Made by a program: the position numbers and the translations under genes. A DNA stretch of 64,000 nt from Bugula neritina (Eukaryota; Animalia; Bryozoa). The DNA lies in the NCBI GenBank assembly GCA_964035545.1, contig OZ037766.1, forward strand, positions 3,958,722 to 4,022,721. The letters run 5' to 3'. How positions within the stretch are numbered: position 1 is the stretch's first letter; every line of letters starts with the position of its first letter. The notes beneath the pieces were generated by a model, which made no database searches, had not been told where the DNA came from, and saw nothing but the letters and a program-made list of their open reading frames with translations. Positions 5,134 to 59,545 of this stretch are shown in pieces.

Positions 5134-8100
5134 ATGGTTCATAAAGGGTTAAAGCGGGGCCTAAATACAGGCAATACAATCAGAAATCATCCAGGTTTGC
5201 CCAACAGTCGTCAGTACCGAAAGTATGGCTGCTTAGTCATCAACAATGACTTAAGAGGAGACAACTCTGTAATAGCAGAAGGAGTGGTGAAGGACTTAAT
5301 GAGTTATCTGCCAACTAAAGGTCAGAGTTCAGTTGAGTATTCTCTGAACAAACGGAGGCGCTGGGAGTTGCCTGAACACATCAAATCCAAGATTGAATTG
5401 GAATCTGACAGCCAAGATATTAAGGTACTGAAAGCTCTCAACTGGTAATATCCATCGCAGTACAATAGTGTATTCGCTAATGAATTAGACTGTCTTCCTT
5501 ACATTATACAACAATTTTTTAGATCACAGTATTGGAACATGTTCTGTCTGATAGAACTAAAGCCGGCATATCTGCATACGACACTTGCACTGGATACTAC
5601 TCTAACGTTGGTAATGTCAGGGAGTGTGTGTCCAACGCTGAAATGAATATCAAGTCGGCAATGCGAGGTCACCGGGAACAAGATCATCTCTCTAAGATAG
5701 AGAGAAGAGAATTAAGAAAAGACTATGAAAGAAGATACGGTAAGTGAAGAATTCAGTTTGATTTTAAGGAAGTTGATTTTCATATGAAGGAAAATGACTG
5801 CAGGTATAAATGTTGTGATGATTTCAGTCTATCTTATTTTATGTCACAGAGTCAGTTGATGAAGCCGAGGATATTTCCACTTATGAGTGTCGCATTGCGA
5901 GCTTCAGCAAGTCTGGTCAGAAGGCGTATAAAGGTTTAGCAGCCAAATCTGGTGAGCATTACTTTGCAAAACAATACAATACAATGCAATACTTTACAAT
6001 ACAATACAATGCAATACTTTGCTATGCAATACTTTACTATGCAGTGCTGGTACTAAAACTAATTTATTTGAGTACAATACTTATCCAAGTCCAACAGTAT
6101 AGATAATGCAATATGTAACGTGATCTGTTTCAGCGTATTATGAGAGAGTAGGAAAGTCAAAGAACAGTCGACGGAGACAATCTCAGAGAAGGGGTTCTGC
6201 TGAGCAGGATTTATATTTCGACCCGCTGTACCTGGATGAAGATGTAGAAGGGGCGGAATACCAAGATAATAGGACTGATCAACCAATCACAGTCTCACTT
6301 GCTGATTGCATCACTTCCTCTCCGCCTACCACTCTAAGATCTCGACACAGGTATATTAGATGTTCCGTATCTGGTTTACCTCCTTGTACTTTGTGTGGCG
6401 GGACTCGCGGCATCACTCGGTATTCTGTGTTTGCAGCAGCAGAAGTAGCACAGACTCTGGTGGCAGCACTGGCAGCAGGAAGGGGTGTCTGGTGTACGTC
6501 GATAAAGTGGCTGGCAGCACAACTTCCCACAACAGCACAACTGCCCCTTCCCACGCTGCCTCTTCCTTCACCAAACCCTACATTGCTGACTCTACGGAGA
6601 TCTTGCTGAAGAGCTCAGACGTCGACATATCGATGCTGACCTTGAACCTGGGCAACAGCTACGCTGAGTCATACTGCACACCCAGGGTTCTCACCATCAA
6701 CTTAACCGAAGAGTTGGGGGTGTCGAACAAGACAGACAAGTTTTACATGGTTCTTGTGCAGAGAGCTGAGGGCGTGGAGTACGACAGATACAGGTGCGTA
6801 TGATGATATGTTGTGTATAATTTCCTGTTTGTATTGGGCACAGCAGTGCAAAGGTTGCTATACGCTGCATTGTGGTTTGTAGAGTATACTGTGCCGGAAC
6901 TTCAGTGACCAATGAGCAAGCTGCTTACATCTCTACACTTCAGCAAAACAAGGAGTACGATTTGGCTACTTTGAAAAGTCTTGTATTGGAATACAGTCGC
7001 TCACTTTCCTATGACACGTAAGTTGTACTCTGTAATTTATGCAATTGCCACCTTTTTATGTTAATTTCAATTACTTATAATTTTAGTGCTTAAACATGTA
7101 CATTTTTAAATTTGTTTGTATTTTAGATCTTCCTCCCAATCTGCCTTTACCGCCAGATACATAACGGCACGCAACAGACCGTTGAGAAACTTCTCAAGTT
7201 ACCAGTGGAACACCAAGTCATCTCTACTGAGTGACCTGAGCAAACAGACCATGTCTAGCTACCAGAGACAGTCAGAGATGAATCTTCTCAACATGAAGGT
7301 AGCATTTCTCTAGACACTCTTTACATCTGAACGTGACTGTTTGTATTCATCGATATTCCGCTTCAAATACTGAATGAGTCAAGTCAAGTGCGAATTCTGT
7401 TTCAGGGGTCAGGTGACGACTTTGTGTTTATTCCAACTCAGTGCCAGCGAGCTGTGAGCTGTAACCTGCACTGTGGAGTGTGTTTCGAAGAGCTGAATGA
7501 TTCCGTCCTCCACTCGGCCATCTTGCCTTGTCAGCACTACTTCTGCAACGAGTGCTGGTCGGCGCACCTGACTACAAATATACGGGAAGGCAAAGTTCAC
7601 ATCACGTGCCCCGAGTACGAGTGTACCAGGGAAGTTGATCCCGTATTCATCATGTCTCTCACGGACTTCAACACGTACAGTATGCACGAGCTACATCTCA
7701 CTGAGTACTCTCTGTTCAGTCAGAAGAAAGCCACCTGGTGTCCTAATGATGTGTAAGTACAGCTGCACTACCCTCCAGTACTATGAGCGAGTGATGAACT
7801 CTGCGTGTCTTATATGTGTGTTGTATTGTGTTGCAGCTGTAGTCGGGTTCTGCATTGTGACGATGATATTGCGGGAAGGTCTGACCCAGTGCCCGTCAGA
7901 TGTCATTGTGGTAAGGAATGCTGCTTCAAATGTCTGAAGGAAGCTCATTGGCCGCTCACTTGTTCTCAGGTACAGACCTACCAGGACAAGCTCCGAGAAG
8001 ATGGTGAGACTTACTATACATATCAATACTTACCCTACTATGTACATATTAATACTTACTATACTACGTACTTATAAGTACTTACTATACTACGTACATA

Positions 8101-16726: not shown

Positions 16727-18871
16727 TCCTGCAGCTTCGCGGCTTTATCCTTATATGGAAATGCAGCCACCCTTGTAAATGCAGTAACCTATCCTGAAGC
16801 AGCTGACGTGGAGCTAACCGGCAAGAAGTATCTTGCTACACCCAACAGCTATCTGAAGTCACTCCTCTGTAAGACCCAGCTTCAGGTAGACGTACCCAGA
16901 ACGAGAGGAATCATCAACAATCTACAAGGTAATTACCATAAAGTATATGCATATAAATCAGTAGTCACCACGTTAGTGTCTCTCTTCACCGACGTGAAAG
17001 TCCGCAATGCTTACATAGAGAACCGGCCTATCACGCGGGGAGAGTGCATCGACATGGTTGCCTCTAAACACTGTGACGGGGCGAGCTTAAGGGCGGAAAT
17101 GGTGTCTTCACTACGCGCAACAAGGTCGAAGCAGAGTACAAGCATTGCTGCAAGAAGCAATTCTTCTCGAAGAATCAGTGTAGCATAGTTAGAGCGACCG
17201 TGTACAAAAGGCATGAGGATAAGGAATTCGAGTCCACTGCAGGTGATGTCCGTCATTGCAAATATGACGAAGGAAGCTGCAGATTGGACGACCGTTCCAT
17301 TCTCATATGGGAGTGGTACACCGAGGAAGGCACCTTCTTCAACAACCACTTCGTCAGTAGTGACCATTCAATGGCCTTGACGTTTGCCCGATATGGAATC
17401 AACTCGACGAAGGACTGCCATGGCAAGAACACGTCGATGTCGGACCAAGGGCTGATGTTAAGGTTCATGACGCCACTCCACAATGTTACCATTCGTAACA
17501 ACGTCACAGCCACATATCAAATTGTAGGCTCGTATGCGTCTACAATAAACGCAGTAGCACAAGCTCTGGCGTTAGAACAAATCACCACTGCACAAAAACT
17601 ATTCTGGACTTCATACTACTATTCGTGTCACAACACTGCCCAAACCATCAACCTCATCACTCTCTTACTTGAACGACATCCCACAACAGCAGCAAGACAC
17701 ATGTTGCAATTGAGTAACGTGGTCGCGAAAGCCGGCCCAGACTACTTAGAAGTGTACCCCTGCACCGAGTTGGAAAGAACTTCTTACCAACTACTGAAAA
17801 TGAAACACAACAACTGCACCAACTACTTGCCGATACAAATATCTATAGCTGGTCTCGAATCCATTGAATATCTGGACCCTGTAGATAACATAATACACCC
17901 TGACTCATACAACGTAGACTGCACCCACAGAGAGGAAGTTCCCGTGAAATTGGACGGTATTATTTACTTATATTCATAGAACGAATCTCTAAAACTGGCC
18001 CCAAACACTACAATTCTATCCTTGCCTAACATCAAATTAGGAGCTACTCCCTTGGAATTACACGAAAACATCTTCAGTCAAGCACATAGACTAAATTGGG
18101 CTGATTTTAGTCATCACCACTCCTTAATACGATTAACTTGTAGATAGAAGCTGTATAATGCAATTTGAGTTAAAGTTAAGTCTAACTAGGTCGATAAAAA
18201 TACTAGATAATTAAAGAAAATAGCTGTGAATATGATATATATACTTAAGATAACAAGTCTAACTAGAATAGTCAGTCACGTTGGGTGTTCAGTCGTTTAT
18301 TATGCAACTGTATAATGGCAAGTCTAGTCTATAGTGAAGACTCTTGCCTGGCTTGCTTGGTCCATGAAGGCCAAGCGATGTCATCTGTTTCGGTCATATC
18401 CTCAAGTGCAGGGTATAACCTTGCTGGTGGGGTGTTTGAGTTAATAGTAGAAATGGGGGCTGCACTTTCTACTTGGGAATGAGTGGGGTTTATTAAAGAA
18501 TGCAATTCCGTGGCTGCCGTAGTCTCTTCTGCTGTTGGTTGGTGTGTTCTACTTTGTTCTATGATGTCCACAGCATCTACTACGATTCTGCCACGCCTTT
18601 TGCAGATGCATCTGATGCATAGGTGATAGTATAATTTCTTTGAAATAAAGACGATTGAAGCAATCGTCACGATGAGATTTGCTAGCATGGTCCACAATTC
18701 GTATACTGAGGCTACATGACCTCCGAACAAGAAGGAGAAGTATGAATTACCCAGTATGCCTTCTTGAGTCTCTATTCTATTTTTGTCTAGTGTATAGTGT
18801 GGGGAGCTAACAACTCCGACGGCTTTCAACACCTGTGCTTGGCGGTTGAGTGTTGAAAGGATAGCATTTAA
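16727..18871 (+). pseudogene. Viral-type envelope glycoprotein (chuvirus-G / herpes-gB-like env of LTR retroelements), about 645 aa reconstructed; 3' part inverted
   Basis: Frames join as ...ITRGECIDMVASKHCDG/GELKGGNGVFTTRNKVEAEYKHCCKKQFFSKNQCSIVRATVYKRH..FESTAGDVRHCKYDEGSCRLDDRSILIWE...HPTTAARHML..VVAKAGPDYLEVYPC. Frameshift near 17078-17081, nonsense TAG at 17977. TM domain and tail lie on the - strand at 18871-18329. Family assignment is by motif recall. Confidence 0.75.
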
Positions 18872-18951
18872 TAGGACTAGTTTAAATTGGTGGCTGATTA
18901 GATTTACACTATTTTTACCTTTATTTAAACAAAAAACACAAAACAAACTAC

Positions 18952-19058
18952 TCAATTATCTCTCGCCCTACGAGCAAGCCTACAACAGCAAAATACGCAA
19001 ACTAACAAGGCTAGGGCCAAGGCCCCTAATATTAGCCCAGCCACTAGGCCAGTGTATT
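18952..19058 (-). CDS. Terminal exon of a small single-pass membrane protein (YTGLVAGLILGALALALLVCVFCCCRLARRARDN*)
   Basis: Strong pyrimidine-rich acceptor (TTTTATTTTAG ending at 19059), open 35 codons, about 21-residue hydrophobic helix followed by CCC and Arg-rich residues, AATAAA at 18925-18920. Upstream exon uncertain. Confidence 0.55.
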
Positions 19059-19518: not shown

Positions 19519-21167
19519 AGCAAAAAGAATGTAGAAGCCATTTTCACTTTGATTAAATAATATAGAGCGAGAAACTTGTATTTACAGCAGAGAAATTAAA
19601 ATTTGGGTACAACAAACTTATGAAGACACCTAATTTTCTGGTCTCATGAGAAATTCATAAAACTAACAGACCATCTAAGCATGACAATTTTTTTCACTAT
19701 TTTTTCCAATATATATTAAAGGAAATATGATATCTTATAATATAGTACAGGTTTTATGATCTAATTTTTTCCTATTTTAAAGTTGAAATACCTTCATAAC
19801 TTCCTATATTAGTAAAAATGTAATATTCCTATCCCACATTGTTATAGTAAAAATTGTAAATTTACTGGTTTTGCTGCTCCCAGTGTGATGGGTATTGTTT
19901 TGGGTGAACATGAGGGCGCTGCAGTCGATTGCCACTGTGTAAAAAAGTTATAGCTATCATTGGTTGTTTGCATTGATGCTCGTTGTTCCTCACATTGTAA
20001 ACATGACCAAATCAGTTCTTTATCATTTTTTAATGTCTGCCTACTGATTTCTAGCTGTTTTAAAATCTGATCAAAATGTACCACCATTTTTTGAGGTCCT
20101 CAATTTTTTCATGTAGGTCTAAGATGAACATTAAGCCCCCAGTAAGATTTTCTCGCAGTGAAGCCCATTTTTCTCCCTAAGGAGAGTGGCTGGCGATGCA
20201 TTTCTTGGTTATTTTGCAGAAACCCAATTTTTGCCTATTGCAAGGAAATGTCCTTCGGCATTCAGGGTACTCCTTGTCTCTCTTTGAGCCACAGTTAGCC
20301 TGGTTTCCGTATCAATGTAAAACAATGAGCTTGTCATAATGTGAGAGTGGCATGCAAACTAAAACTGATTGCAATGATGCAATAAACACATATGTAAAAT
20401 ACGCTGGCTAAATGCTGGTTCAAAAGAAAACTACTATTTTTTTACCAACTATCTTGTGCGTCTAAAAGATTAGTGAGCATTTTTTCAGCTTTTTTTCTGT
20501 TAATAGCATTCTTGACATTATGTAGTGGCTCAATCAAAGCTGTTACATACTGAGATATATTTACTTGATTCTTCTCTTCTGCTGTGCAACTTATTGCTGG
20601 AGGCCTTTTAATGTCCATCTGTGTTCACATACACTCACCTTTCACTGCCATGTCTGGATCTGGTGGTGGTACTGGAAGCTTTTTAACGCTGGTTAATGAA
20701 ATAAAAAATGTTTTATTTAATAATACTAATTTATGTATGGCCCTGAGCCTCTATTGTATAACTCTCCTACTACAGCAACTCATATGATACTCGGAACAAA
20801 TAGTTAGCTATCCTTGCCTACCTTTGAGATCAGATACTCTATAGTTTTCCGTAGTTTTCATTTTGAACTCCTCATATGCATGGGAACATTTTAAAAATCA
20901 GGAGCCTTAGACATATTTTAATTAATGTTTTTTTACACAGTAACATGCCATTATGACTAAAAGTTAAGGCTGCAATGCTAGGCTTTTGCATGATATAAGT
21001 GGTCTACCGTCTCAACAAGGCAGCCATCATCTTTAGTCAAGCATGTGTATTTTCTTTTATTCTACAGTTTATACATTGAAGTCATTACAAATATTATATA
21101 GACTATGTTTTATTGCACATAAAATTTTGAGCAAATTGTTGAAGATAAACTACAGTATGTTTTAAGA

Positions 21168-21701
21168 TCATAAGACTTTTTTTCTTTCCAGTTGTGGAAC
21201 TTCTACGTAATGGACACATTTGTGATCTATGAATCCATTTGAGATCTTCCGTGGGCTTTCACCAGCCTTTCTTTTATAGTCCTAAATATAAGGTTAGACT
21301 AATGAGGAATTGAAAAATTGTCAATGGATTTAATGATATGACTCTTTGGTAGATTTTACTAACCTCGGGGGTTTCGTCTCCATCACTCTGTGTGGGATCA
21401 ACAACAACCTCCTCCTCTTGGCTGCCAAAATTTGCAGGGTTGCTGCTAATAGATGAGATATCATCTAGGTAGGGGTTAGGATGACGGTATGTATCTAGGA
21501 TTGGCCTAATAACATAAAAAGGTAAAAGGTAAAAATATATAAAAGCATACAAATACTATTACAGTGCAAACATTATTATTATTATTGCATAAGTACATAC
21601 CTGTCATCTAAAAATGATTCAACCCCTGGTAGAGTGTCCTGTCCTTCATCTTCACTGCTGCAATCAGAGTGGGCTGCTTCTAAGTCTAAGAATTGAGCCA
21701 T
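21168..21701 (-). CDS. Three-exon acidic protein, 118 aa (gene B of the 1536-bp unit)
   Basis: Exons 21701-21601 (MAQFLDLEAAHSDCSSEDEGQDTLPGVESFLDD), 21505-21364 and 21281-21168 (DYKRKAGESPRK...). Donors GTATGT and GTTAGT, pyrimidine-rich TAG acceptors, CTAAC branch site, phases consistent. Confidence 0.6.
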
Positions 21702-22222
21702 TTTGGTCTTGGTTGAAGTAAGCAGCAATGTTTGAAGATTCTAAAATTTGAAATAAGCGCGTCGTTTGAGTCGGTAAAGTGCGCATGTGTAGCTTGCGGG
21801 GCAGGCGCACACACACTGGATGTGCATAAATAGCCATGATAGCCATAACTGGCAAGACTCCTAGACAATACCTCAGCTTGAACTTGTCTCAGGTTTTTAT
21901 CAATATCCTCCACTAAAACCTGTAGACCAGGGCCTGCAAAGTATCTTAGGTCATGATAGAATTTCTGGTTAAATGCCACGTGAGTAATATTAGATAAATG
22001 CTGTCTCATGTCAGGCGTCATATCTAAAGCCACCCATAGTGCAGTAGCCAGCTTATCCACCCAGCTATCTTCATGTGGTTTAAATGGGCCAACACCAACT
22101 ATAGAACTAGCTAAATCCCAAATGTTGTCTACTGTGTTAGGTTCAACATTTAACCATCTATAGTCCCTTCCTGTAGGTTTAACATCTAGCCAATATGGTA
22201 GTGCATCTTTCAAAAGCAACAT
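21686..22222 (-). CDS. ORF A2, 178 aa, unknown function (may be fused to A1 by a -1 frameshift)
   Basis: Intact, non-repetitive, Trp-rich ORF overlapping A1 by 13 nt and gene B by 16 nt. Confidence 0.55.
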   Translation of the reverse strand: MLLLKDALPYWLDVKPTGRDYRWLNVEPNTVDNIWDLASSIVGVGPFKPHEDSWVDKLATALWVALDMTPDMRQHLSNITHVAFNQKFYHDLRYFAGPGLQVLVEDIDKNLRQVQAEVLSRSLASYGYHGYLCTSSVCAPAPQATHAHFTDSNDALISNFRIFKHCCLLQPRPKWLNS

Positions 22223-22755
22223 AAATCCAAAACGGCTTGCTTAATAGCACCAGCAATGAAGGGTGTAATACCCTGATTTAAAAGAAAATACTCAACCCAA
22301 TCAAGAAAGTGGTGTGGGAGACCCTTAACTGTAATGTCACCCCTCAACCAAGACATAAACATAGCTACAGATGATTGGTTCAAAAACTTTTTAGGATTAA
22401 ACCATGAGGTTTTTAGTTTGTTTAACAAAGCATCCAGTAGCTTTGTCTTACCATTGCCTAGTGGCTTTTGGGAACCGCCACTGAAATCATCCTCAGTACC
22501 AAAATATTTTTGAACCTTAGATATTCCCCTCCATCTCTGTTTAGTAGCCTTTGATGCATGTGATGCCAGTATACCTATTGATGTAGCAGCTGCAATAGCC
22601 CCTGCAGTAGTAGCAACCCCTATGACAATGGTTCTAGTGCTTAATGATGTCAGTCTCCTCAATACTAATTGAACAACCCTCCTACCACCAGTATGTTTTA
22701 AAATCATGAGACTTTTTTTCTTTCCAGTTGTGGAACTTCTACGTAATGGACACAT
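22210..22755 (-). CDS. ORF A1, 181 aa, basic N-terminus plus an Ala/Gly-rich hydrophobic segment, unknown function
   Basis: Intact ORF starting inside the terminal repeat; hydrophobic stretch IVIGVATTAGAIAAATSIGILA. Confidence 0.55.
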   Translation of the reverse strand: MCPLRRSSTTGKKKSLMILKHTGGRRVVQLVLRRLTSLSTRTIVIGVATTAGAIAAATSIGILASHASKATKQRWRGISKVQKYFGTEDDFSGGSQKPLGNGKTKLLDALLNKLKTSWFNPKKFLNQSSVAMFMSWLRGDITVKGLPHHFLDWVEYFLLNQGITPFIAGAIKQAVLDLCCF

Positions 22756-24514
22756 TTGTGATCTATGAATCCATTTTTGTATGCACTAAAATGACATAAA
22801 TAGTGAGTTGATACCAGAAAGGTATGTACTTAATGCTGTTGAAAAGGTGTAATAGTATAAAAGATAAAATATAGAACTTTAAGTAACCAAAATATAATGG
22901 TGAAATATGAGTTTATGCTGACCGTTGGTCTCCTTTCTGACACTCAATACTTTATATGTAAAATTATTGACATATTACTGCAGTTGGATTGTATTTCTGT
23001 GGTGTTGGTTATCACAATCAATTTACTATTGCATGTTATTATTATATAAAAACAAAATTTGCTTGGATATGTTTATGAGTATTTTATTATAGGCAATCGA
23101 AAACGCGACTACACTCAACTAACTCAAACTAGAAACTAACTAAATTATGGAAGCTGACCTTTTCGCAGTTAGCCTCTAAACAAAATAATTACTCTAAATT
23201 GTAAAATTCAAAGTGACAGCAAATCTTATTTACTCTAACTTTTACATTTATATAAAAAAAAACTGTAATAGGTAACTAAAAAACATATGAAGAAAAATTC
23301 ATTACGCTACCAGTAAAACGAGCTGCAGCTGTTTAAAAGTGTTAAATCAAGGCTGTTTGGTTGAGTTTTATTCAACATGTAGCATTAAGACCAAGAAAAG
23401 TCGTTTGCATTGCGCTTCTTGGTTATTTTGAAGAAACCCAGTTTTTCAGTATGTCCGAAAATTTCTTTTGAGCCTAATAATTATATGGCGCTAAACCTTT
23501 CAGAGGTGACGTTTGCTGTAACTTTTGAAAAAACTTTGTTTTTATGCCATAATATTTTGAATCAGACTTCGAAGAAAATTGTGTGACTTTAAATATTCTG
23601 CGAACTGTAAATATGTCACTTGATGTTGGTTTCTGGATTTTTATTTGAGTTTCTTAATGTTATCTTTAGAAGTAAGCTTTTTGTTTTGATTGATAGAAAA
23701 ATCTTTTTTACAAAATTCTCCAATTGACTACAAATTGATTTTATTAAAAATTTAAACTAATATTCTCTACCCTTATTCGCAAATGTTTGCTTCAGATTTT
23801 GAGTTTACAGGATAACAATCCTAAAGTTGTAAGTTTCTAATATATCACTCTAGTAGTGCTTGGTTTTTTCAACCTTTGTTTCACATCTGTAGCTCTGAAT
23901 AAGCCCACTTACCAAATTATTGGCAAACTATACATTTAATGATCACCTTCTAAGCTGTTAGCAACACATGCGTGTCCCAGCAGGTCAAATTTTATCCTAT
24001 TGAGAGTCTGATACTAGGTTTGTTATGTCACCATGCTATTGCTTTTCTTTCAAATTACCAGATTTGAAATTTTCATGTTAATCAAATTCCTATTTTATTT
24101 ATAAATCCACTCAAAAAATGTGGCTGAGGTGACTGCTAAAAATCATTGTTCTGTTGGAGTTTTTCTCCAATACTTTCTAATAATAATTAGAAAGTATAAT
24201 TATTGGTCCATGAACTTTCTTTAGCAAGTCTTTTTTAATAAAGGTCACCTATTCTGAATAGGGGTTTGAATGTGGTGTTTCTTCAATGATTTCAATTCTT
24301 ATCTTGGTGAGCTTACTTTTAGCTTAGAACTCATTCACAACCTTCCCTGTTATTTCTTCGGGACTTTTTTCAAAGCAGCTTTTAGTGTCTTAGCATCCCT
24401 GAAGTGCAGTACTAGTTGACTGGAGTATACTGATGTTTCCCTCTTTTAGTTTCCCCACATTTTTTGTATGCACCAAACTAACAGAGTCAATGCCTAGAAA
24501 CCTCATTCTCAGTA

Positions 24515-24970
24515 GACCTGCACCTGTGGTAGGTTCAAATCATGCCTTTGTATGTTATCCTGAAGGCAGCAGGATCAAATCTAATTGAGCTTGGGATTAC
24601 CACGCCCACTTTGGGTTCTATGAACAACTGCTTCACTCCATTTTTGATGGAGGGAAACTCTTTGTGAGTGAGCTTACGCCCACTTTTCACTGTGCCCCAA
24701 TTTGCAAGGGCAGCACCTAGAGCTTGATCTGTCACTTCATGGTGGCCTTGACCTAGCTATGGACGGACAGTTACTAAAATGTCTCTGGAGAGAAACGACT
24801 TGATTGCCCAGTTTTCAGGGGCATTCATGACAAACTTCTTTAAAGTCTGGAGTGACACTGCCGATTTTACTCTTTCAAAAGCAACAAAATCCTTATGTAA
24901 ATCCTGAATATCAGCTCTTGATCGTTTGGAAAGGTCTTGTATCCCATTAACGTTGATGGTGGTGATCTGT
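24515..24970 (-). mobile_element. Rearranged partial second copy of the Tx1/L1-like LINE (ORF2 start fused upstream of an ORF1 fragment)
   Basis: ITTINVNGI..KRSRADI joined to VAFERVKSAVSLQ...GHHEVTDQALGAALANWGTVKSGRK...FRITYKGMI; near-identical DNA to 27110-27515 and 26395-26480. Confidence 0.85.
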
Positions 24971-27600
24971 GGGGTGTCTGGTTGGAATGACCCTAAGGGA
25001 GATTCCTGAACCATTGACTCAGGTGGTACGTGAACAGGGGGAGTCTTTGATGGTCAAAGTTTCCATGCCCCGGTTTTAGGACAGAGTTAAAGAAAAAATG
25101 GCTTGGCAACGATTCTCGACGTTCTCCATTCCCAGCCCTCCCTTTTCCTTGGACAACTCAGCGATTCTTCTGGAAAAAATCTTGTCTTTTACTTTCACCA
25201 TAGAGAAAGGAGTAGATGGTTTTTCTGATGGACCGGAATGAGGAAGGGTCTAGGTACGTAGCAGCAGCGTAGTAGAGGATCGGAAAAAGTATTGTGTTGG
25301 CCAGGAAAACCTTTCCTCTAATTGTGCAGAATAGATTCTTTAATCCCCCTGCTCTTTTGCATGTCTTTCTGAGTGCCAAGTCAAAGTTGATTTTGGCTAT
25401 CACTTGGAAAGAGCGATTGCAAAAGGTTATGTCACACACCTTCATTCTTTCCACTACGTACCGCTGATACTGGACACAGGTGGCATTGCCAATCGGGAGT
25501 AGCTGAGTCTTGTCTGTGTTGAGCATGTTTCCAGTTCCTTGTTTAATGGATTCAAAAGATTCAAACACCTCGGTATCATCAAACTCATCATTGCAAAAAA
25601 AATAGAAGATCATCTGCGTATGCTGTGAGCTTTGCGATGTTGTTCCAGGTGGTCCTCACTCCAGTGAAGCGTGGGTTTTCGGTGATGAAATTCACAAACA
25701 TCTGTACGTATAGTACATACAGTGGGTGAAAGGGACAACCTTGTCTAACCCCTCTCTTTAACATGACAGGCTTAGACAGGTGTCCATTCACCTGGATCTT
25801 CGTGGAGGTATTGGTGTAGAGACAATCTTGTGGTCGGAATACGGAAAGAATTCACTGCTAACCTGACAAGGCAAGTCAATGGGAGTAAAGAACTTGTCTA
25901 ATCGGCTTGCTTGTTTTTCCTGGTGGCCGTACCAGGTGAAATCCTTAGCAGTGGGGTGTTTGGCTCTGAAGATATCAGTAATTCCTAAGTTTGAGGTTGA
26001 AACTCTGAGCTCCTCTGAGCCGATGAGGCTTGCCGTAGAGTCGAAATGCGAGCGGCTGTCAAGGTCTCTTGATGTGATGCAGTTTGTGTCTCCCGCTAGA
26101 ATGTTTTTCCTTGTAAAGGAAAGGTATTCTGGGAGGCACTGACTGTAAAATTGACGCCTCTCTATAGGGTTGTTGGGTGCGTACACATTCACAATCCTCA
26201 GGGCGGCGCTGCCTACATCTACGTCCACTGCAGTGATTCTGCCATTTTCTTCGTAAAGGGGGTTGGTAATCTTTCCTCCAAAGGCTGGGTTGACTAGGAT
26301 GGCAGTCCCTCCAGACCATTCTGTGTGAAAGTTTACATATTTATGTCCGGGCCAATTAGGGATGTTCTCTGTGTGTGTTTCCTGTAAGAGGAATATGTCA
26401 GCTCTTGACTCTTGGAGAGAGGATATCACGTTTGCCCTTTTGAAGTGATCCCTTATCCCATTAACATTGATGGTGGTGATTTTCAATCTGCCAGCCATTA
26501 TGATGATTGGTGATTGGTTTCCATCTCCCCATCATTTGTTGTGTTGGGAAACAGTTCCGAGTCAGCTAAAATACTGAAACGATTTGCCACTTCATTGCTG
26601 GTGTCAGAGCTAGTCTCAGGGATAGATGTTGGGGTAGGAAGTCCTAATGGGGAGGGGCTGCCTTCTTTTCTTCGTTTCCTCCTGTTTTGCCGGGAGCTTG
26701 AGCGTCTGCGCAGGGCTCCTTTTGGTTTTTGGGCCAGGGGCTTTTGCGTCGGAGGGGCTGTTGGCTCTTGGCTAGGTTCTTTGGGGGGCTCCACTGCCTT
26801 GTCGGCTTCTGACTCCTTGTTAGAAGTATTTGATTCTGCTGATTTTTAAACTTTGGTGTTGCTCGGGGCCTTGGGAGTTTTCTTCTCTTGGCCTGAGGTC
26901 TGAGTTGGGAATCTAGGGGGTCTTGACGAGGTTGTTTTCAAAGCCAGTTTGTTCCTGTAGAACTCAGGACAGTTGGCTAAGGAGTGGTCTGTGCTACCAC
27001 ACACCACACAGAGTGCTGTGTTCGTGCAGCTGCTCTTCAGATGTCCAATCTCGTGGCATTTGTGGCACCGCTTCTCGGGGCAAGAGGCAACCTCTTGCTC
27101 AGTAGATCTACACCTGTGGCAGGTACGAATCATGCCTTTGTATGTTATCCTGAAGGCAGCAGGACCAAATCTAATTGAGCTTGGGATTACCACGCCCACT
27201 TTGGGTTCTATGAAGAACTGTCTCACTCCATTTTCGATGAAGGGAAACTCTTTGTAAATGAGCTTACGCCCACTTTTCACTGTGCCCCAATTTGCAAGGG
27301 CAGCACCTAGCGTCTGGTCTGTCACTTCATGGTGGCCTTGACCTAGCTGTGGAGTTACAGTTACCAAAATTTCTCTGGAAAGAGACGACTTAATAGCCCA
27401 GTTTCCAGGGGGACTCGTGACGAACTTCTTTAAAGCCTCTTTGTCTAGGAAGGCGATTTCCACTCCAGTCTGGAGTGACACCACTGACTTCACTCTTTCA
27501 AAAGCAACAATATCCTTTAGTTTCTTGAAGAACTCCGTGGAGCTTGTCAGGACAGCCCCTAACGATGGCTGATGAGAGGACTATGATGCTCTCAGGAGGT
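24971..27600 (-). mobile_element. Non-LTR retrotransposon, L1/Tx1 clade, internally deleted and frameshifted
   Basis: ORF1 with three CCHC-type knuckles (CHRC, CHKCHEIGHLKSSC, CVVCGSTDHSLANC). ORF2 APE endonuclease (TINVNG, LQETH, NVYAPN, GDTN, SRLD, SDH). RT remnants RGVRQGCP and AYADD, plus KGGLG. The region between EN and RT is deleted near 25790. Confidence 0.92.
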
Positions 27601-41100: not shown

Positions 41101-42291
41101 TACTTATATTGTAATTACTGTTCACCATAGTTTCTGCCAACTCCCTTGCACCAACTGAACAAGAGGGATTGCCTAGTACTGCAGATCTTCAGGCTATGGT
41201 AGCTCAAGACGATGTGGAGTTTGAGGGCGTGGAAGATGCCCCCCACCCCACAGATGTGATGCCAGTGGATACGATACGGGCTATACATGACACCCCCCAC
41301 CCCACAGATGTGATGCCAGTAGATACTCCACAGGCTATACATGACACCCCCCACCCCACAGATGTGATGCCAGTAGATACTCCACAGGCTATACATGACA
41401 CCCCCCACCCTACAGATGTGATGCCAGTAGATACTCCACAGGCTATACATGACACCCCCCACCCTACCGACTTCGTACCACCTGATGATTCTTATCATAT
41501 GCAAACAGAACCAACATCTGAAGCAGCTTTCTCCGGTGGGCTTAACCTCATGACTCATATATAAAGGCATGACTTATATAAAACACTTGATTCTAGTTGT
41601 CAACAGAATGTAGCAAGTAGTTTCATGAGATCTTGTTACTATTGACAGATATACCACCTCCTCCATACACTGAACGGGAGATCTTGCCAACCCCTGGCAC
41701 TGAGCCAGGAAGTGCTGACAATTCTCTGCAGTCAGCTGCCCCAACAGCCGGGGCTGAAATCAGTGAGTCATGTTTCCTACTTTATCCTACAGGTGGCTGT
41801 CAGTGTGATATGCTGCCTTACGCTGTCACTGTGTTCATATACTGCGCATGTGTGTGGATGGTGCATTAGTCAGTGTGTAGTGCTGTTGTTGCCAGCACAC
41901 TGTACACGTTATAGCACTTGGAATCGTTAATCTCAAACTTCTTACTACACTCCAGCATATAACAGTACACTTGCTGTGATACTGTGAAGAATGTTCCATT
42001 CTATCTTACCCTAAATGTTTATCACATGTTTATACATATCTATTACGCATGCTTTTCTATTATTCTGTCTTTTGGCATTTGACTGATACGTGACATACAC
42101 ATCAATATACTTTTAACATGCACCAAGCTGTGAACTTGACTGTGAATTTAACTTTGTTTCAACCAGTTTTGCATTAGATACTACTTGATGGCTGTCATGA
42201 GTTGTAGTTGTAACTAATACTAACTATGAGAATAGATGACTATGTATTGTAGTTGTGTGGGTCATTTGTTGACTGTAGTAGTAACAGCAGC

Positions 42292-45300: not shown

Positions 45301-48300
45301 TTTATGTATGCAAGGCTGCGATTGGTTAGTCTGTTGACCTTGGTCTGTATGAGCTATTTGATTGGTCAATACTTTAACACGAATTTGCAGATCGACAGAA
45401 GGCTAATGTTAGACTTCGAGAGACGTTGCGTAACACATTCCTCATTCCCGACAGCACACTGCCGCCGCTGCTGTGTTACGATAACGACAGCTCTCGGTAC
45501 TCCGCAGTGGACGCTGAACCAGATGAACTGGGCTTGATAGCTAAGCTCAGGGGTAAGTGCTTATAGTTTTCAAGGTAGTTAGACATCATTGTGGTGTTGT
45601 GTCATTTCCTTTGTTCTGCAAATTTCTTCAAATTTAAAGCCGGTTTACAGTAACTACACAATAACTACACAGTAACTACACAATAACTACACAGTAACTG
45701 CACAGTAACTGCACAGTAACTGCACAGTAACTGCACAGTGACTACACATTGACTACACAGTAACTACACAGTAACTACAGAGTACATGTATATATGTATC
45801 TCTCACTCTTTTACAGAAGAGGGTGATGATGGAAGATTTGCTTTTGCAATACATAAAGATCTAAATGTAGAAGTAAAGATTGTAAATAGTAAGTGTGCTG
45901 AGAAGATAAATGCCAGTCATACTGTGTGTTCATATAGAGTAGCTGATATTGCAAGGATATGATCACATGATCACCATCTGACTATAAATAAATCTGTTGC
46001 CCAGCAGCCAACTGTACTGGGCAACATGCTAGAGCTAGTAGCTCGTCTGAATTCAAACATGTCACATATATGAAATATATTCACGTATATTGTTTGGGTT
46101 TATCTCTGCATTACGACCTCTCTTACTAAAGAGCCATATTTATTATCAAATAATTTACAACTCAATTGGCTGATAGTAAAAAGTTTAGCTTTGTCTTCTT
46201 ATTCTATCTCTACATCATAAGTTGCTATAACCTGGCGGTGGCATTGAAAGGTTTAAAGTTTTTATAAGGGATTTACTTTTCTTTTTACTGCTTCAGACTA
46301 TCATATAGCTTCAGAACTTAACTCTGTTGTTATGCAACTGGTAAGATGGGTGCTCTTGCCTATATTTCTCTACCTTAAAGAGATGTCTGAGCTGATGTGT
46401 CTGTATTTACTCTCTCTTTCTGTCTCCACTCCAGTGGACTGCTGCACTAAAAAGCAATGCTGGTGCTTCACTTCCCACGGACTAAACACCGTCTCCCAGG
46501 ATGAGGTGGTTCTGGTGCTGGATTGTCTACCAGATGAAAACTGCATACCCAGAGACGTGTTTCATCTGTACAAGATGTTGTACCAACAGGCAGCCACAGG
46601 TAAAACGGCAGCAGGTAGTCGTAGATCAGCTATTTCTGTTTTGGTATTTTTATATTTAAGCTTTTATGTATTTTGACTGAAGAGAAAACAGCTTAGAACA
46701 TTGAGCAGCTTGCTAACCCTGTTTATAGAAATAATTTATAAAAGTTGTTGAAATACAGCTAGATGCTAGAGTCTAGAATGACAGATCGGCAGGAAGTTGT
46801 GTCCCCAGCACCACTGTATCATTACTTCTGTGTAGTAACATGTCATGTAGGCTACTCTACTATCTTCTTCTCTAAGTTCAATATTTTTTAGTAAATGCCT
46901 CTAGCTTCTTTGCTTTAACCATAAAATTGTTAAGACCTATTTCACTTATATTTTAAAAAACAAACTTTATAAGATATTCAATCCAACTCTTTCTAACGAA
47001 TGACGTAACTGATTCATTATTATATTGTTTAGATTATCAATTTGATAAGATCCTCTCACTCTGTCTGTTTGTCTGCTTACAGGGCAGCAAGTTACCGAGC
47101 TGGGATTCGCTGACTTATCCAAAGTATCCCCTTTTGATGGGGAGTCGGGATTCTTAGGCAGCAAGCAGCACACTGGCCTACTATTTATAAGACCAACATT
47201 CCAATGTTTGAAGGGGCTCTGTTTGCCCGACCCGCCTTATCTTTTTGCAATCCTAATTCACGTGTCGGAGGTTCCGTGGGCTAGACTGTTTCCTGTACGA
47301 CTGAAGCTGAGATTGGGTGCTGAATTTAAATGTAAGTCGAGTAACTTTCCTCCAGTAAACACTTCAAACAAAATAGTATCGAGAGTCGCTAATTGAGAGT
47401 TGTCTTTTCACATGTTAGTAACATTCTTATTCTTTGATGCTGCTATGGTTTTATAGAAATTAAAAGTGTTTTTTTTTATTATTTTTGAACTGTACTTAAA
47501 ATCATATTGGTTTTTACTTTAAATGAAAAATTGTTTTCAATTGAAAAATTTTTAGGTGATTTCTGATACCAGTAACTCGTAGCAAGGCCATCTTTTGTTT
47601 GTACCGATAACTATCAAATGTTTTTCTACTCATAGTGATAGTAGAGATTTTAAGTTGTATGCTGATAGTTACAATAAATAGGCTGGGCCAAGGGATAGCA
47701 TAATTTGCTGCCTCGGGCATCATTCTATGAGTTGACAGATTATAAAATAATTCTTTAAAAAAGGGTGGGAGAGAGGTGCTGAAATAAAGCTTGAATTTTC
47801 TCTAACATGCTTGTATTAATTTCTGTATTGTTCAAAAGGTCTGTAACACATGTATTATTAATTTGTAGACTACCCATGTCCCCTTGTAAGTGTACGGGGC
47901 AGGCCGCCGGTCTATGGGGAGATAAATAACACTATTATGAATTTATTGGCCGACTTCCAAACGTATAAATACTCTCTCAGCAAAATAGAAGGTTTCACGG
48001 TGCATTTGATGGATAAAATAACTACCATATCTATACCTAAGAATATGTACTCCACGGTGAGTAGTAGCTATGTTCATCTATTATTATATATTATCTGGTT
48101 ATGTAATTCTACTGCACATTATTTTATGTGAAATATGTTATTTTAAGGATATTTATAGGGTATTTTATAATTGTAATTGAATTAAAAGGTAGTTGATCAT
48201 ATTATGTCTTTATGTTTCCGCTAAACTTACTGCAGAATGACTTGCCATGTGCATCATGATTGATCATGGCATTAGCTTAATACATTTACATACACTTTGT

Positions 48301-58599: not shown

Positions 58600-59545
58600 T
58601 TACTTAACATCACAAACATCTATCACATCTTTGCTGTCGTTATTGTCTTGTCGTTCATCATCATTCTTGACCTTCACTTTAACAAGGTCAGCGGCATGAA
58701 CCAGCTCTTGGTGCTGGCCAACTGTGAAGCCCATTGGTTGTGTTGCAGAAGATCTGAATGCTGGCCAGATGACGCTGTTTTTCTGTATACATTCCATTAT
58801 ATTGTCACTTCTGCTAGAGGTTGGGGGTACCGCGGGTCGTCTGTGTAACAGACTATCAATGTTGAAAGAGGAATTAGAAGGCTTTCGCTGTTGGTCTGTC
58901 GGAGTTTTTTGTCCTACATCTTTTTGGACTTTCGTTGCTGTTGCAATTGTAGGAGACAATTTAGCTAGTTTGCAACGAGGAATATCTAAACTTACTTTTC
59001 TGTGAAGCTTCTCTTCTTGGCGTAGTCTTTTTTTCTCAGCTCTACAATTGATTAAATGCCTTGTCATACATTAACCTGTCATACACTTCCTGTGCTGTGC
59101 TACCTTTGTGTGATTTTTCATGTGACAAATAAGCAATGCAATAAATATTATCAACTTGATGATTTGATAGAAAAGTACAAGGTGTGAATTCAAAATCCTG
59201 AATAATTATTTAGGCCGATTTGCTGGCAACGATCCTAATATTATGTAACAAATGAATTAATTTGTTGGAAAAATTCAATTGTCAGTCTGCTAACAGTAAC
59301 TTGAGCCAGAAAAATAGTCATGACTGCCTGTTTGTAATATATTATAATCTAATAACAAATTAAAAATGTGTGAAAAATAAATTATTATAATTAGCCTACC
59401 TTTCTCGTTCTTTAGCCTTCGTTTCTTCAGGATCTATAGGATCTCCACTACACGTAAGAGGCTGAGCATTGTGAGCCGGTCGACCAGGGCCTTTTCGTGT
59501 GTTTTCTTTTTTTCTCCATTTTGCTCTTCTATTTTGAAACCATAC
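58600..59545 (-). CDS. UNCX: Uncx / unc-4 paired-like homeobox protein, last two exons (5' part not found in the window)
   Basis: Exon 59545-59400 VWFQNRRAKWRKKENTRKGPGRPAHNAQPLTCSGDPIDPEE (diagnostic Unc-4 extension); exon 59041-58600 with eh1 motif FNIDSLL. Confidence 0.93.

What the first reader, a model, noticed from the sequence alone, without database searches (positions are those of the whole stretch)
21153..22776. Candidate novel minicircle replicon: a terminally redundant 1536-bp unit fully tiled by three overlapping genes
Seen: 88-bp direct repeats (21153-21240, 22689-22776). Joining them gives a 1536-bp circle in which A1 (22755-22210), A2 (22222-21686) and spliced gene B (21701-21168) overlap head to tail by 13, 16 and 52 nt, all on one strand, all without internal stops and with no intergenic DNA. 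Both repeat mismatches are synonymous in the A1 frame (CTC/CTT, ATT/ATC). A TATAAAAG at 21278-21271 falls just upstream of the A1 start only after circularisation. No HUH-Rep, RT or jelly-roll capsid is recognisable to me. Inference: an integrated monomer-plus copy of a small circular nuclear DNA (satellite, segment of a multipartite virus, or defective small DNA virus), or a retro-copied terminally redundant transcript of one.
Basis: partly seen in the sequence, partly recalled or inferred. Interest (0 to 1): 0.85.

Follow-up and report, generated by a model that had tools for sequence, protein, structure and literature searches.

The report
Broken viral fragment, not a minicircle
The supposed three-gene DNA minicircle is a 1.4-kb broken piece of a larger element, likely an unclassified animal DNA virus, lying in an animal chromosome between two copies of an 88-base stretch that is probably duplicated host DNA.

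Summary
The anatomy is as reported: 88-bp repeats, three minus-strand frames, overlaps of 13, 16 and 52 nt. The minicircle reading is not supported. A1 and A2 match, in order, one 741-aa protein (P0003/P0001, residues 321-480 and 491-620, 34% identity, E 3e-32), so they are halves of one frame-broken gene. That match begins within 8 nt of the inner edge of the right repeat. A 97%-identical relative of gene B in another study's run leaves the window sequence at 21241, exactly the inner edge of the left repeat. The repeat has host-like composition. The insert is therefore 21241-22688, probably with a duplicated host target. A second version in run X1 shares only 21524-21833, so the unit is not a conserved genome. 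No circle or excess depth was seen, though contigs cannot exclude one. By eye only, B's start resembles E1-type replicase N-termini and P0003 resembles xeno-class adomavirus minor virion proteins; no family search confirmed this. Verdict: a likely endogenous fragment of an unclassified DNA virus; moderate interest.

The parts
21153..21240 (.). Left copy of the 88-bp direct repeat; probably one copy of a duplicated host target
   Evidence: G+C 0.318 against flanks 0.324/0.280 and insert 0.401; host-like in Markov scores
22689..22776 (.). Right copy of the 88-bp repeat; supplies A1's ATG and first 22 codons, which have no similarity to P0003
   Evidence: two short contigs of run X2 match 22755-22794 and 22760-22794 across its outer edge
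21241..22688 (-). The insert proper, 1448 bp, likely a rearranged fragment of a larger virus-like element
   Evidence: edges set by the end of X2's match (21241) and the onset of P0003 similarity (about 22683)
22231..22680 (-). First part of broken gene A (inside ORF A1, 22755-22210); matches P0003 321-480
   Evidence: tblastn 34% over 161 columns; BLASTP E 1e-22 pairwise
21845..22231 (-). Second part of broken gene A (inside ORF A2, 22222-21686); matches P0003 491-620 in another frame
   Evidence: phmmer E 1.6e-07 in 1.84 billion proteins; tblastn 34% over 131 columns
21524..21833 (-). Block shared with a second version in run X1: A2 tail, CpG-rich stretch upstream of B, B exon 1 and most of intron 1
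   Evidence: contigs of depth 51 leave the window sequence at 21524 and 21833; CpG observed/expected 0.61 against 0.12 in 21834-22688
21601..21701 (-). B exon 1 (predicted): acidic start resembling E1-type replicase N-termini by eye
   Evidence: comparison by eye; no Pfam match
21364..21505 (-). B exon 2 (predicted), acidic and Ser/Pro-rich
   Evidence: covered by X2's contig
21241..21281 (-). Native start of B exon 3 (predicted), a basic cluster with an SP site; cut off at the repeat, after which the frame runs on to a stop at 21168 inside the repeat
21984..21992 (-). TAATATTAC nonamer inside gene A coding sequence, not in a stem-loop; judged chance
   Evidence: 18 matches of TARTATTAC in the window; fold z 0.58 and 0.85

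Best explanation
The 1448 bases between the repeats are a broken fragment of a larger element, likely a mid-size animal DNA virus, that probably entered the host chromosome during break repair and left an 88-bp duplication of host DNA on either side. Shown: gene A is one gene in two frames, lacking the 320 residues that precede the match in P0003; gene B is cut at the left repeat; both outside homologies stop at the inner repeat edges; a second version shares only the middle block. Inferred: the repeat is host target DNA (about 0.65); integration was DNA-level end joining with templated duplication; the internal break points at 21524 and 21833, each at a short repeated motif, come from microhomology-guided rearrangement; the copy is a non-functional fossil. 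Lead only (about 0.45): A is a minor virion protein gene and B the 5' end of an E1-like replicase gene of a xeno-class adomavirus-like virus. Any insert with a target duplication looks like a terminally redundant circle when its ends are joined on paper.
For: One protein holds both A1 and A2 in order (combined E 3e-32). The running score along that diagonal falls to -18 through the repeat and turns upward at 22683, 5 nt inside the insert; A1's first 22 residues score no better than shuffles against P0003 1-320 (353 of 1000 shuffles reach it). Run X2, from another study, has a 1201-nt contig that matches 21241-21509 with 7 differences and carries 932 other letters beyond 21241. The repeat scores in the middle of host windows (26-37 of 76 as low) and below nearly all gene A windows (0-1 of 18 as low; 4 of 31 for the whole insert). 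Two short X2 contigs cross the outer edge of the right repeat (34 of 40 and 31 of 35 letters; about 0.1 such matches expected anywhere in the 2-kb stretch under a simple base model). For a circle with its own junction at 21240/21241, one end of the integrated copy would have to fall exactly on that junction (inference). In X1 the element's contigs have depth 72, 97 and 78 against 122 and 110 for the flanks, a hint against an abundant free circle. Predicted introns kept, no poly(A). Integration of DNA-virus pieces by end joining is described in PMC3205384 (passages); rearranged integrated copies of RepE1 viruses in sea anemones in PMC11071296 (Results).
Against: A1's frame is open through the whole repeat to an ATG (chance about 0.2) and both mismatches are synonymous in it (0.11), jointly about 0.02: this favours a viral, coding repeat. 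88 bp is long for a target duplication (own knowledge). No empty-site allele was seen. P0003's Ala-rich first half is low in complexity, so lack of similarity there is weak evidence. The short X2 matches may be chance likeness to a host repeat. The viral nature of the parent is not proven: P0003 has no Pfam, PHROG or PDB match, and its contig could not be read. Only one family of relatives (2 proteins, both on 16,407-nt contigs) supports the one-gene reading. X1 may be the sample the window came from. Contig depth is a flat mean and no copy number.
Confidence: 0.6

Rival explanations
1. The repeat is viral. A deleted (defective) genome of a larger virus was joined head to tail, as a 1536-bp circle or a concatemer of a linear piece, and one unit plus 88 bp integrated. 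It would have needed a helper virus to replicate.
For: A1 is open through the repeat to an ATG and both mismatches are synonymous (joint chance about 0.02). X2's departure at 21241 also fits a deletion junction. A1's basic start followed by a small-residue hydrophobic stretch is reminiscent of L2-type proteins (recalled).
Against: The outer end at 22776 must coincide exactly with the junction. The repeat's composition is host-like, P0003 similarity starts at the repeat's inner edge, X2 contigs cross the outer edge, no origin-like stem-loop at the junction (z -0.9 to -1.3), no excess depth in X1.
Confidence: 0.2
2. The insert is a piece of a large DNA transposon or integrating element (Polinton/adintovirus-, Helitron-like) or a patchwork of captured host gene pieces, not of a free virus.
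For: B has predicted spliceosomal introns and a CpG-rich upstream stretch; several versions occur in host-derived runs; the acidic start of B is low in complexity and also occurs in cellular chromatin proteins such as Spt6 (recalled); 16.4 kb fits such elements (own knowledge).
Against: P0003 is one unspliced 741-codon product from metagenome assemblies; gene A is strongly CpG-poor (0.12 against 0.47 for the window); no transposon domain or terminal structure in the insert; by-eye likeness to adomavirus proteins.
Confidence: 0.14
3. One reading: an autonomous or satellite minicircle of 1536 bp with three complete overlapping genes.
For: Repeat, open frames and overlaps are real; a TAATATTAC nonamer lies at 21992-21984.
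Against: A1+A2 are one broken gene and B is truncated; a second version shares only 310 bp; the nonamer is in coding sequence with no stem and occurs 18 times in the window; no relative of this size in viral or metagenome contigs.
Confidence: 0.04

Closest known systems
Non-retroviral endogenous viral elements integrated by end joining (PMC3205384, passages read)
   Same: Fragment of a virus-like genome in an animal chromosome, broken genes, introns kept, no poly(A).
   Different: An 88-bp flanking duplication; that review says its hepadnaviral examples have none. Parent virus not identified.
Xeno-class adomaviruses ('xenomaviruses'; 10.1101/341131 passages and part 2 of 4; PMC11071296 Results parts 1-2 of 3, figure legends and supplement 2)
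   Same: By eye: P0003 has an Ala/Glu-rich first half and a small-residue hydrophobic stretch like the Eltwo and Lipase proteins of Adoma5233 and Adoma13664; B starts like RepE1 proteins; 16.4 kb lies within the sizes in their names.
   Different: No alignment test was possible; none of the exact motifs searched hit a like protein in the stored part of the supplement; no helicase, Pentoncah or Histoid in the fragment; B has two predicted introns.
Integrated RepE1 cressvirus fragments of sea anemones (PMC11071296)
   Same: Several rearranged copies of an E1-type virus joined to host DNA in an invertebrate.
   Different: The 5 cressvirus RepE1 starts shown lack B's acidic box by eye; the relative of gene A lies on a 16.4-kb contig.
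Papillomavirus E1 / L2 and polyomavirus VP2
   Same: Two E1 starts in the supplement open with a like acidic box; Ala-rich VP2 start is recalled.
   Different: No Pfam match for B's exons, A1, A2 or P0003 to these families.
CRESS-DNA satellites and defective circles
   Same: Size near 1.5 kb; a TAATATTAC nonamer (motif recalled).
   Different: Nonamer not in a stem-loop; no Rep; genes are fragments of a longer element.

Membership tests
Circular satellite / CRESS minicircle | Nonanucleotide in the loop of an origin stem-loop | tested here: not met
   Nonamer at 21992-21984 folds no better than shuffles (139 and 160 of 200 fold as well); junction region z -0.9 to -1.3.
Circular satellite / CRESS minicircle | Complete genes of its own, conserved as a unit | tested here: not met
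   A1+A2 match one longer protein; relatives share only parts.
Circular satellite / CRESS minicircle | Free circular or multimeric form | tested here: inconclusive
   No joint listed in X1 or X2, but only contigs were laid and the 68-nt identical part of the repeat exceeds the 31-letter words.
Non-retroviral endogenous viral element | Continuous with host chromosomal DNA on both sides | tested here: met
   Window holds animal genes (SARA_C E 6.5e-14, RING); X1 contigs 21768-22776 and 22747-23148 overlap across the right edge; no X1 contig is listed for 21129-21210.
Non-retroviral endogenous viral element | Homology to a protein of a recognised virus | tested here: inconclusive
   Only unnamed relatives P0001/P0003; no family match; likeness to named viral proteins by eye only.
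Non-retroviral endogenous viral element | Decay (frame breaks, truncation) | tested here: met
   Frame change near 22231, 5' truncation of A, 3' truncation of B.
Non-retroviral endogenous viral element | Empty-site allele or orthologous empty locus | not testable with these tools
   No whole genome held; contigs do not bridge the site.
Adomaviridae (xeno class) | Superfamily-3 helicase replicase (RepE1, RepLT or CressRep) | tested here: inconclusive
   Only about 95 predicted codons of B are present; start resembles 11 of 20 adomavirus RepE1 starts shown, by eye; no Pfam match.
Adomaviridae (xeno class) | Pentoncah capsid gene and Histoid gene | not testable with these tools
   Not in the fragment; the contigs of P0001 and X2 could not be read.
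Adomaviridae (xeno class) | Circular dsDNA genome | not testable with these tools
   Two cluster members both lie on 16,407-nt contigs, which hints at a whole genome but does not show it.
Retro-copied transcript (L1-type) | Introns removed and poly(A) at the 3' junction | tested here: not met
   Two predicted GT-AG introns kept; no A-run at 21241 on the coding strand.

The most novel reading that the evidence does not exclude
An undescribed lineage of adomavirus-like DNA viruses with an intron-bearing E1-type replicase infects this invertebrate, throws off 1.5-kb defective circles that keep the replicase promoter region, and has left several rearranged, polymorphic copies in the germ line; this locus is one unit plus 88 bp of such a circle.
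Probability: 0.12. Interest if true: 0.7.

Novelty: new member of a known kind. Interest (0 to 1): 0.33.

Why it matters
It removes a false candidate for a new minicircle replicon and shows the trap: an insert with a long target duplication mimics a terminally redundant circle, and a frame-broken gene mimics overlapping genes. What remains has some value. If the parent is a virus, this locus ties an unnamed protein family, so far seen only on two 16.4-kb metagenome contigs, to an animal host and links it with an E1-like gene. That would give a host and a genomic fossil for a poorly sampled branch near the small DNA tumour viruses.

Tried and rejected
No whole genome is held. Word-based protein searches: A2 0 of 41 candidates, A1 0 of 254; P0001 320-653 found only itself among 5127; only near-length proteins were searched. 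Locus scans found no confirmed relative: viral contigs 0 of 4, 21, 74, 7 and 99 pattern hits, metagenome contigs 0 of 75 and 50, prokaryote genomes 0 of 64; a 25-nt DNA pattern had no exact match in viral or genome contigs. Pfam, PHROG and PDB sequence searches gave nothing at curated or E<0.001 level for A1, A2, B's exons or P0003. P0002 (E 3e-05) is a repetitive spurious product and was dropped. Single-sequence folds were poor (A2 pLDDT 38.8, A1 50.7); searches with the A1 model gave no match at E<=0.001 and only generic helices at Z about 5; the A2 model was not searched. The protein atlas gave no answer. No RNA holder listed. Runs X3 and X4 show no cover of 21140-22615; a hole in contigs proves nothing. 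Rfam: 2 matches, both far under gathering score. A2's tail (127-178) does not align to P0003's tail (875 of 1000 shuffles as good); one other frame of three shows weak collinear likeness (11 of 300 shuffles), not relied on. Earlier findings: four answered look-ups by sequence, place and words plus one for P0003, all empty. Paper searches (listings only, except the papers named) showed no paper on this element; the host-clade word was a guess and found nothing. Supplements of 10.1101/341131 are closed, and three large files of PMC11071296 could not be read; its file 2 is cut. They may hold closer relatives. An inverted 16-nt likeness between B's first splice donor and 22817-22832 was judged chance.
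Full report
1. The observation. The 88-nt direct repeats are at 21153-21240 and 22689-22776, 1536 apart, with two mismatches. A1 (22755-22210) and A2 (22222-21686) are open on the minus strand. B can be read from 21701 through two GT-AG introns (21600-21506, 21363-21282) to a stop at 21168, 357 nt in frame; splicing is predicted only. The overlaps and the TATAAAAG are there. The window is animal DNA: it holds a SARA_C exon, a RING exon and an endonuclease/zinc-knuckle retrotransposon. No whole genome is held.

2. A1 and A2 are one gene. A full HMMER scan of 1.84 billion proteins with A2 gave 2 hits at E<=0.001: P0001 (653 aa, E 1.6e-07) and a repetitive artefact that I dropped. P0003 aligns to 22680-22231 (residues 321-480) and, in the next frame, to 22231-21845 (residues 491-620), each at 34% identity, combined E 3e-32. 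A2's ATG corresponds to an internal Met. The 13-nt overlap is thus what a frame break leaves: the old frame runs to its next stop while the new one holds a Met. The window lacks the first 320 residues of the relative.

3. Both homologies end at the inner edges of the repeats. Along the P0003 diagonal the running score falls to -18 through the right repeat and turns upward at 22683; the repeat's inner edge is 22688/22689. A1's first 22 residues, which come from the repeat, align no better than shuffles (353 of 1000). On the other side, run X2 from another study has a 1201-nt contig that matches 21241-21509 with 7 differences and continues with 932 other letters at 21241, the exact inner edge of the left repeat. 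The 30 letters shown there keep B's frame open, which is weak by itself. So B's 'end' and A1's 'start' are both supplied by the repeat, and with them the 52-nt overlap.

4. Whose is the repeat? For host DNA: G+C 0.318, like the flanks (0.324, 0.280) and unlike the insert (0.401); Markov scores mid-range among host windows (26-37 of 76 as low) and below nearly all gene A windows (0-1 of 18; 4 of 31 for the whole insert); two short X2 contigs cross its outer right edge (34 of 40, 31 of 35 letters; about 0.1 expected anywhere in the stretch under a simple model); and a circle model needs one integration end to fall exactly on the circle's own junction. For viral DNA: A1's frame is open to an ATG in the repeat (3969 of 20000 random positions allow this) and both mismatches are synonymous (0.11), jointly about 0.02; and 88 bp is long for a target duplication (own knowledge). 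I put host origin at about 0.65. No empty allele was seen, so this is inferred.

5. The unit is not a conserved genome. X1, which holds 0.99 of the sampled words and may be the source sample, has the element in contigs of depth 72, 97 and 78 against 122 and 110 for the flanks. It also has a second version at depth about 51 that shares only 21524-21833, with one substitution and a short indel, and differs on both sides. Both departure points sit at short repeated motifs in the window, and P0003 similarity fades at 21845, next to one of them. The second version may be the other allele (72+51 is near the flank depth) or another locus; contigs cannot tell, and depth is only a hint. No joint that goes back was listed, but contigs cannot show or exclude a circle here. 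There is no origin-like stem-loop at the junction or around the one nonamer. Two mismatches in 88 nt (95% interval 0.3-8%) give no useful date.

6. How it most likely arose. Shown: truncation, frame break, shared blocks, edges. Inferred: a piece of a larger element was captured at a chromosomal break by end joining, with templated duplication of 88 bp of target, and rearranged at microhomologies before or after capture. Kept introns and no poly(A) argue against reverse transcription. End-joining integration of DNA viruses is described in PMC3205384 (passages). The copy is most likely inert.

7. What the parent is. No library names it, folds were too poor to use, and no related locus was found in viral, metagenome or prokaryote collections. 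Two leads come from reading supplement 2 of PMC11071296 by eye. B opens with an aromatic-aliphatic-acidic box ending in EA, an acidic run and an FLDD, and later has a basic cluster with an SP site; a like box is visible in 11 of 20 adomavirus RepE1 starts and 0 of 5 cressvirus RepE1 starts shown (about 300 residues of each; my note says 10, the recount gives 11), and at the start of two papillomavirus E1 entries. The motif is low in complexity and also occurs in cellular proteins (recalled). P0003's Ala/Glu-rich first half and hydrophobic stretch resemble the Eltwo and Lipase proteins listed before Pentoncah in two xeno-class adomaviruses. Exact motifs shared by A1 and P0003 hit no like protein in the stored part of that file. 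The same paper reports rearranged integrated RepE1 viruses in sea anemones; xenomaviruses were first reported from mollusc data in 10.1101/341131, and PMC9145170 discusses one (passages). Gene A's CpG depletion (0.12 against 0.47) fits an animal DNA virus or long methylation. It works like an endogenous viral fossil; membership of Adomaviridae is untested.

8. Verdict. Observation partly confirmed; minicircle reading largely not supported (0.04 as an autonomous three-gene circle, 0.2 as a defective head-to-tail unit). Best reading 0.6. New member of a known kind. Interest 0.33.

Noticed in passing
window 16727-17979 (+) and 18329-18955 (-): Broken, Cys-rich frames that look by eye like pieces of a retroelement envelope glycoprotein gene, in opposite orientations; no Pfam match.
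   Followed up: partly
window 24499-27580 (-): Decayed non-LTR retrotransposon: zinc-knuckle ORF and endonuclease ORF (Exo_endo_phos E 1.3e-13), with a 350-bp partial second copy 24499-24848 / 27089-27438 at 90%.
   Followed up: partly
window 21750-21833: CpG-rich stretch about 50-130 nt upstream of B's ATG with repeated GCGCA motifs and a TTTGAA; resembles NRF1 and CHR cell-cycle promoter elements (recalled). It lies in the block shared with X1's second version.
   Followed up: partly
P0001 and P0003: Near-identical proteins that differ in length (653 and 741 aa) through a different C-terminus; both on contigs of 16,407 nt.
   Followed up: no
window 19854-20455 and 22972-23455: Host repeats at which runs X2, X3 and X4 share the same variant letters against the window, while X1 matches it closely, although X1, X3 and X4 carry one organism label; may mark distinct host lineages.
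   Followed up: no
window 7337-7937 (+), 46257-47396 (+), 58600-59070 (-): Host gene exons: RING finger, SARA_C, and a frame with an eh1-like motif suggesting a transcription factor (recalled).
   Followed up: no
window 41239-41464: 54-bp tandem repeat, 4.2 copies, inside an open frame on both strands.
   Followed up: no
window 21113-21108 (-): An AATAAA lies 40 nt outside the left repeat, downstream of B's read-through stop; in A+T-rich flank and probably chance.
   Followed up: no
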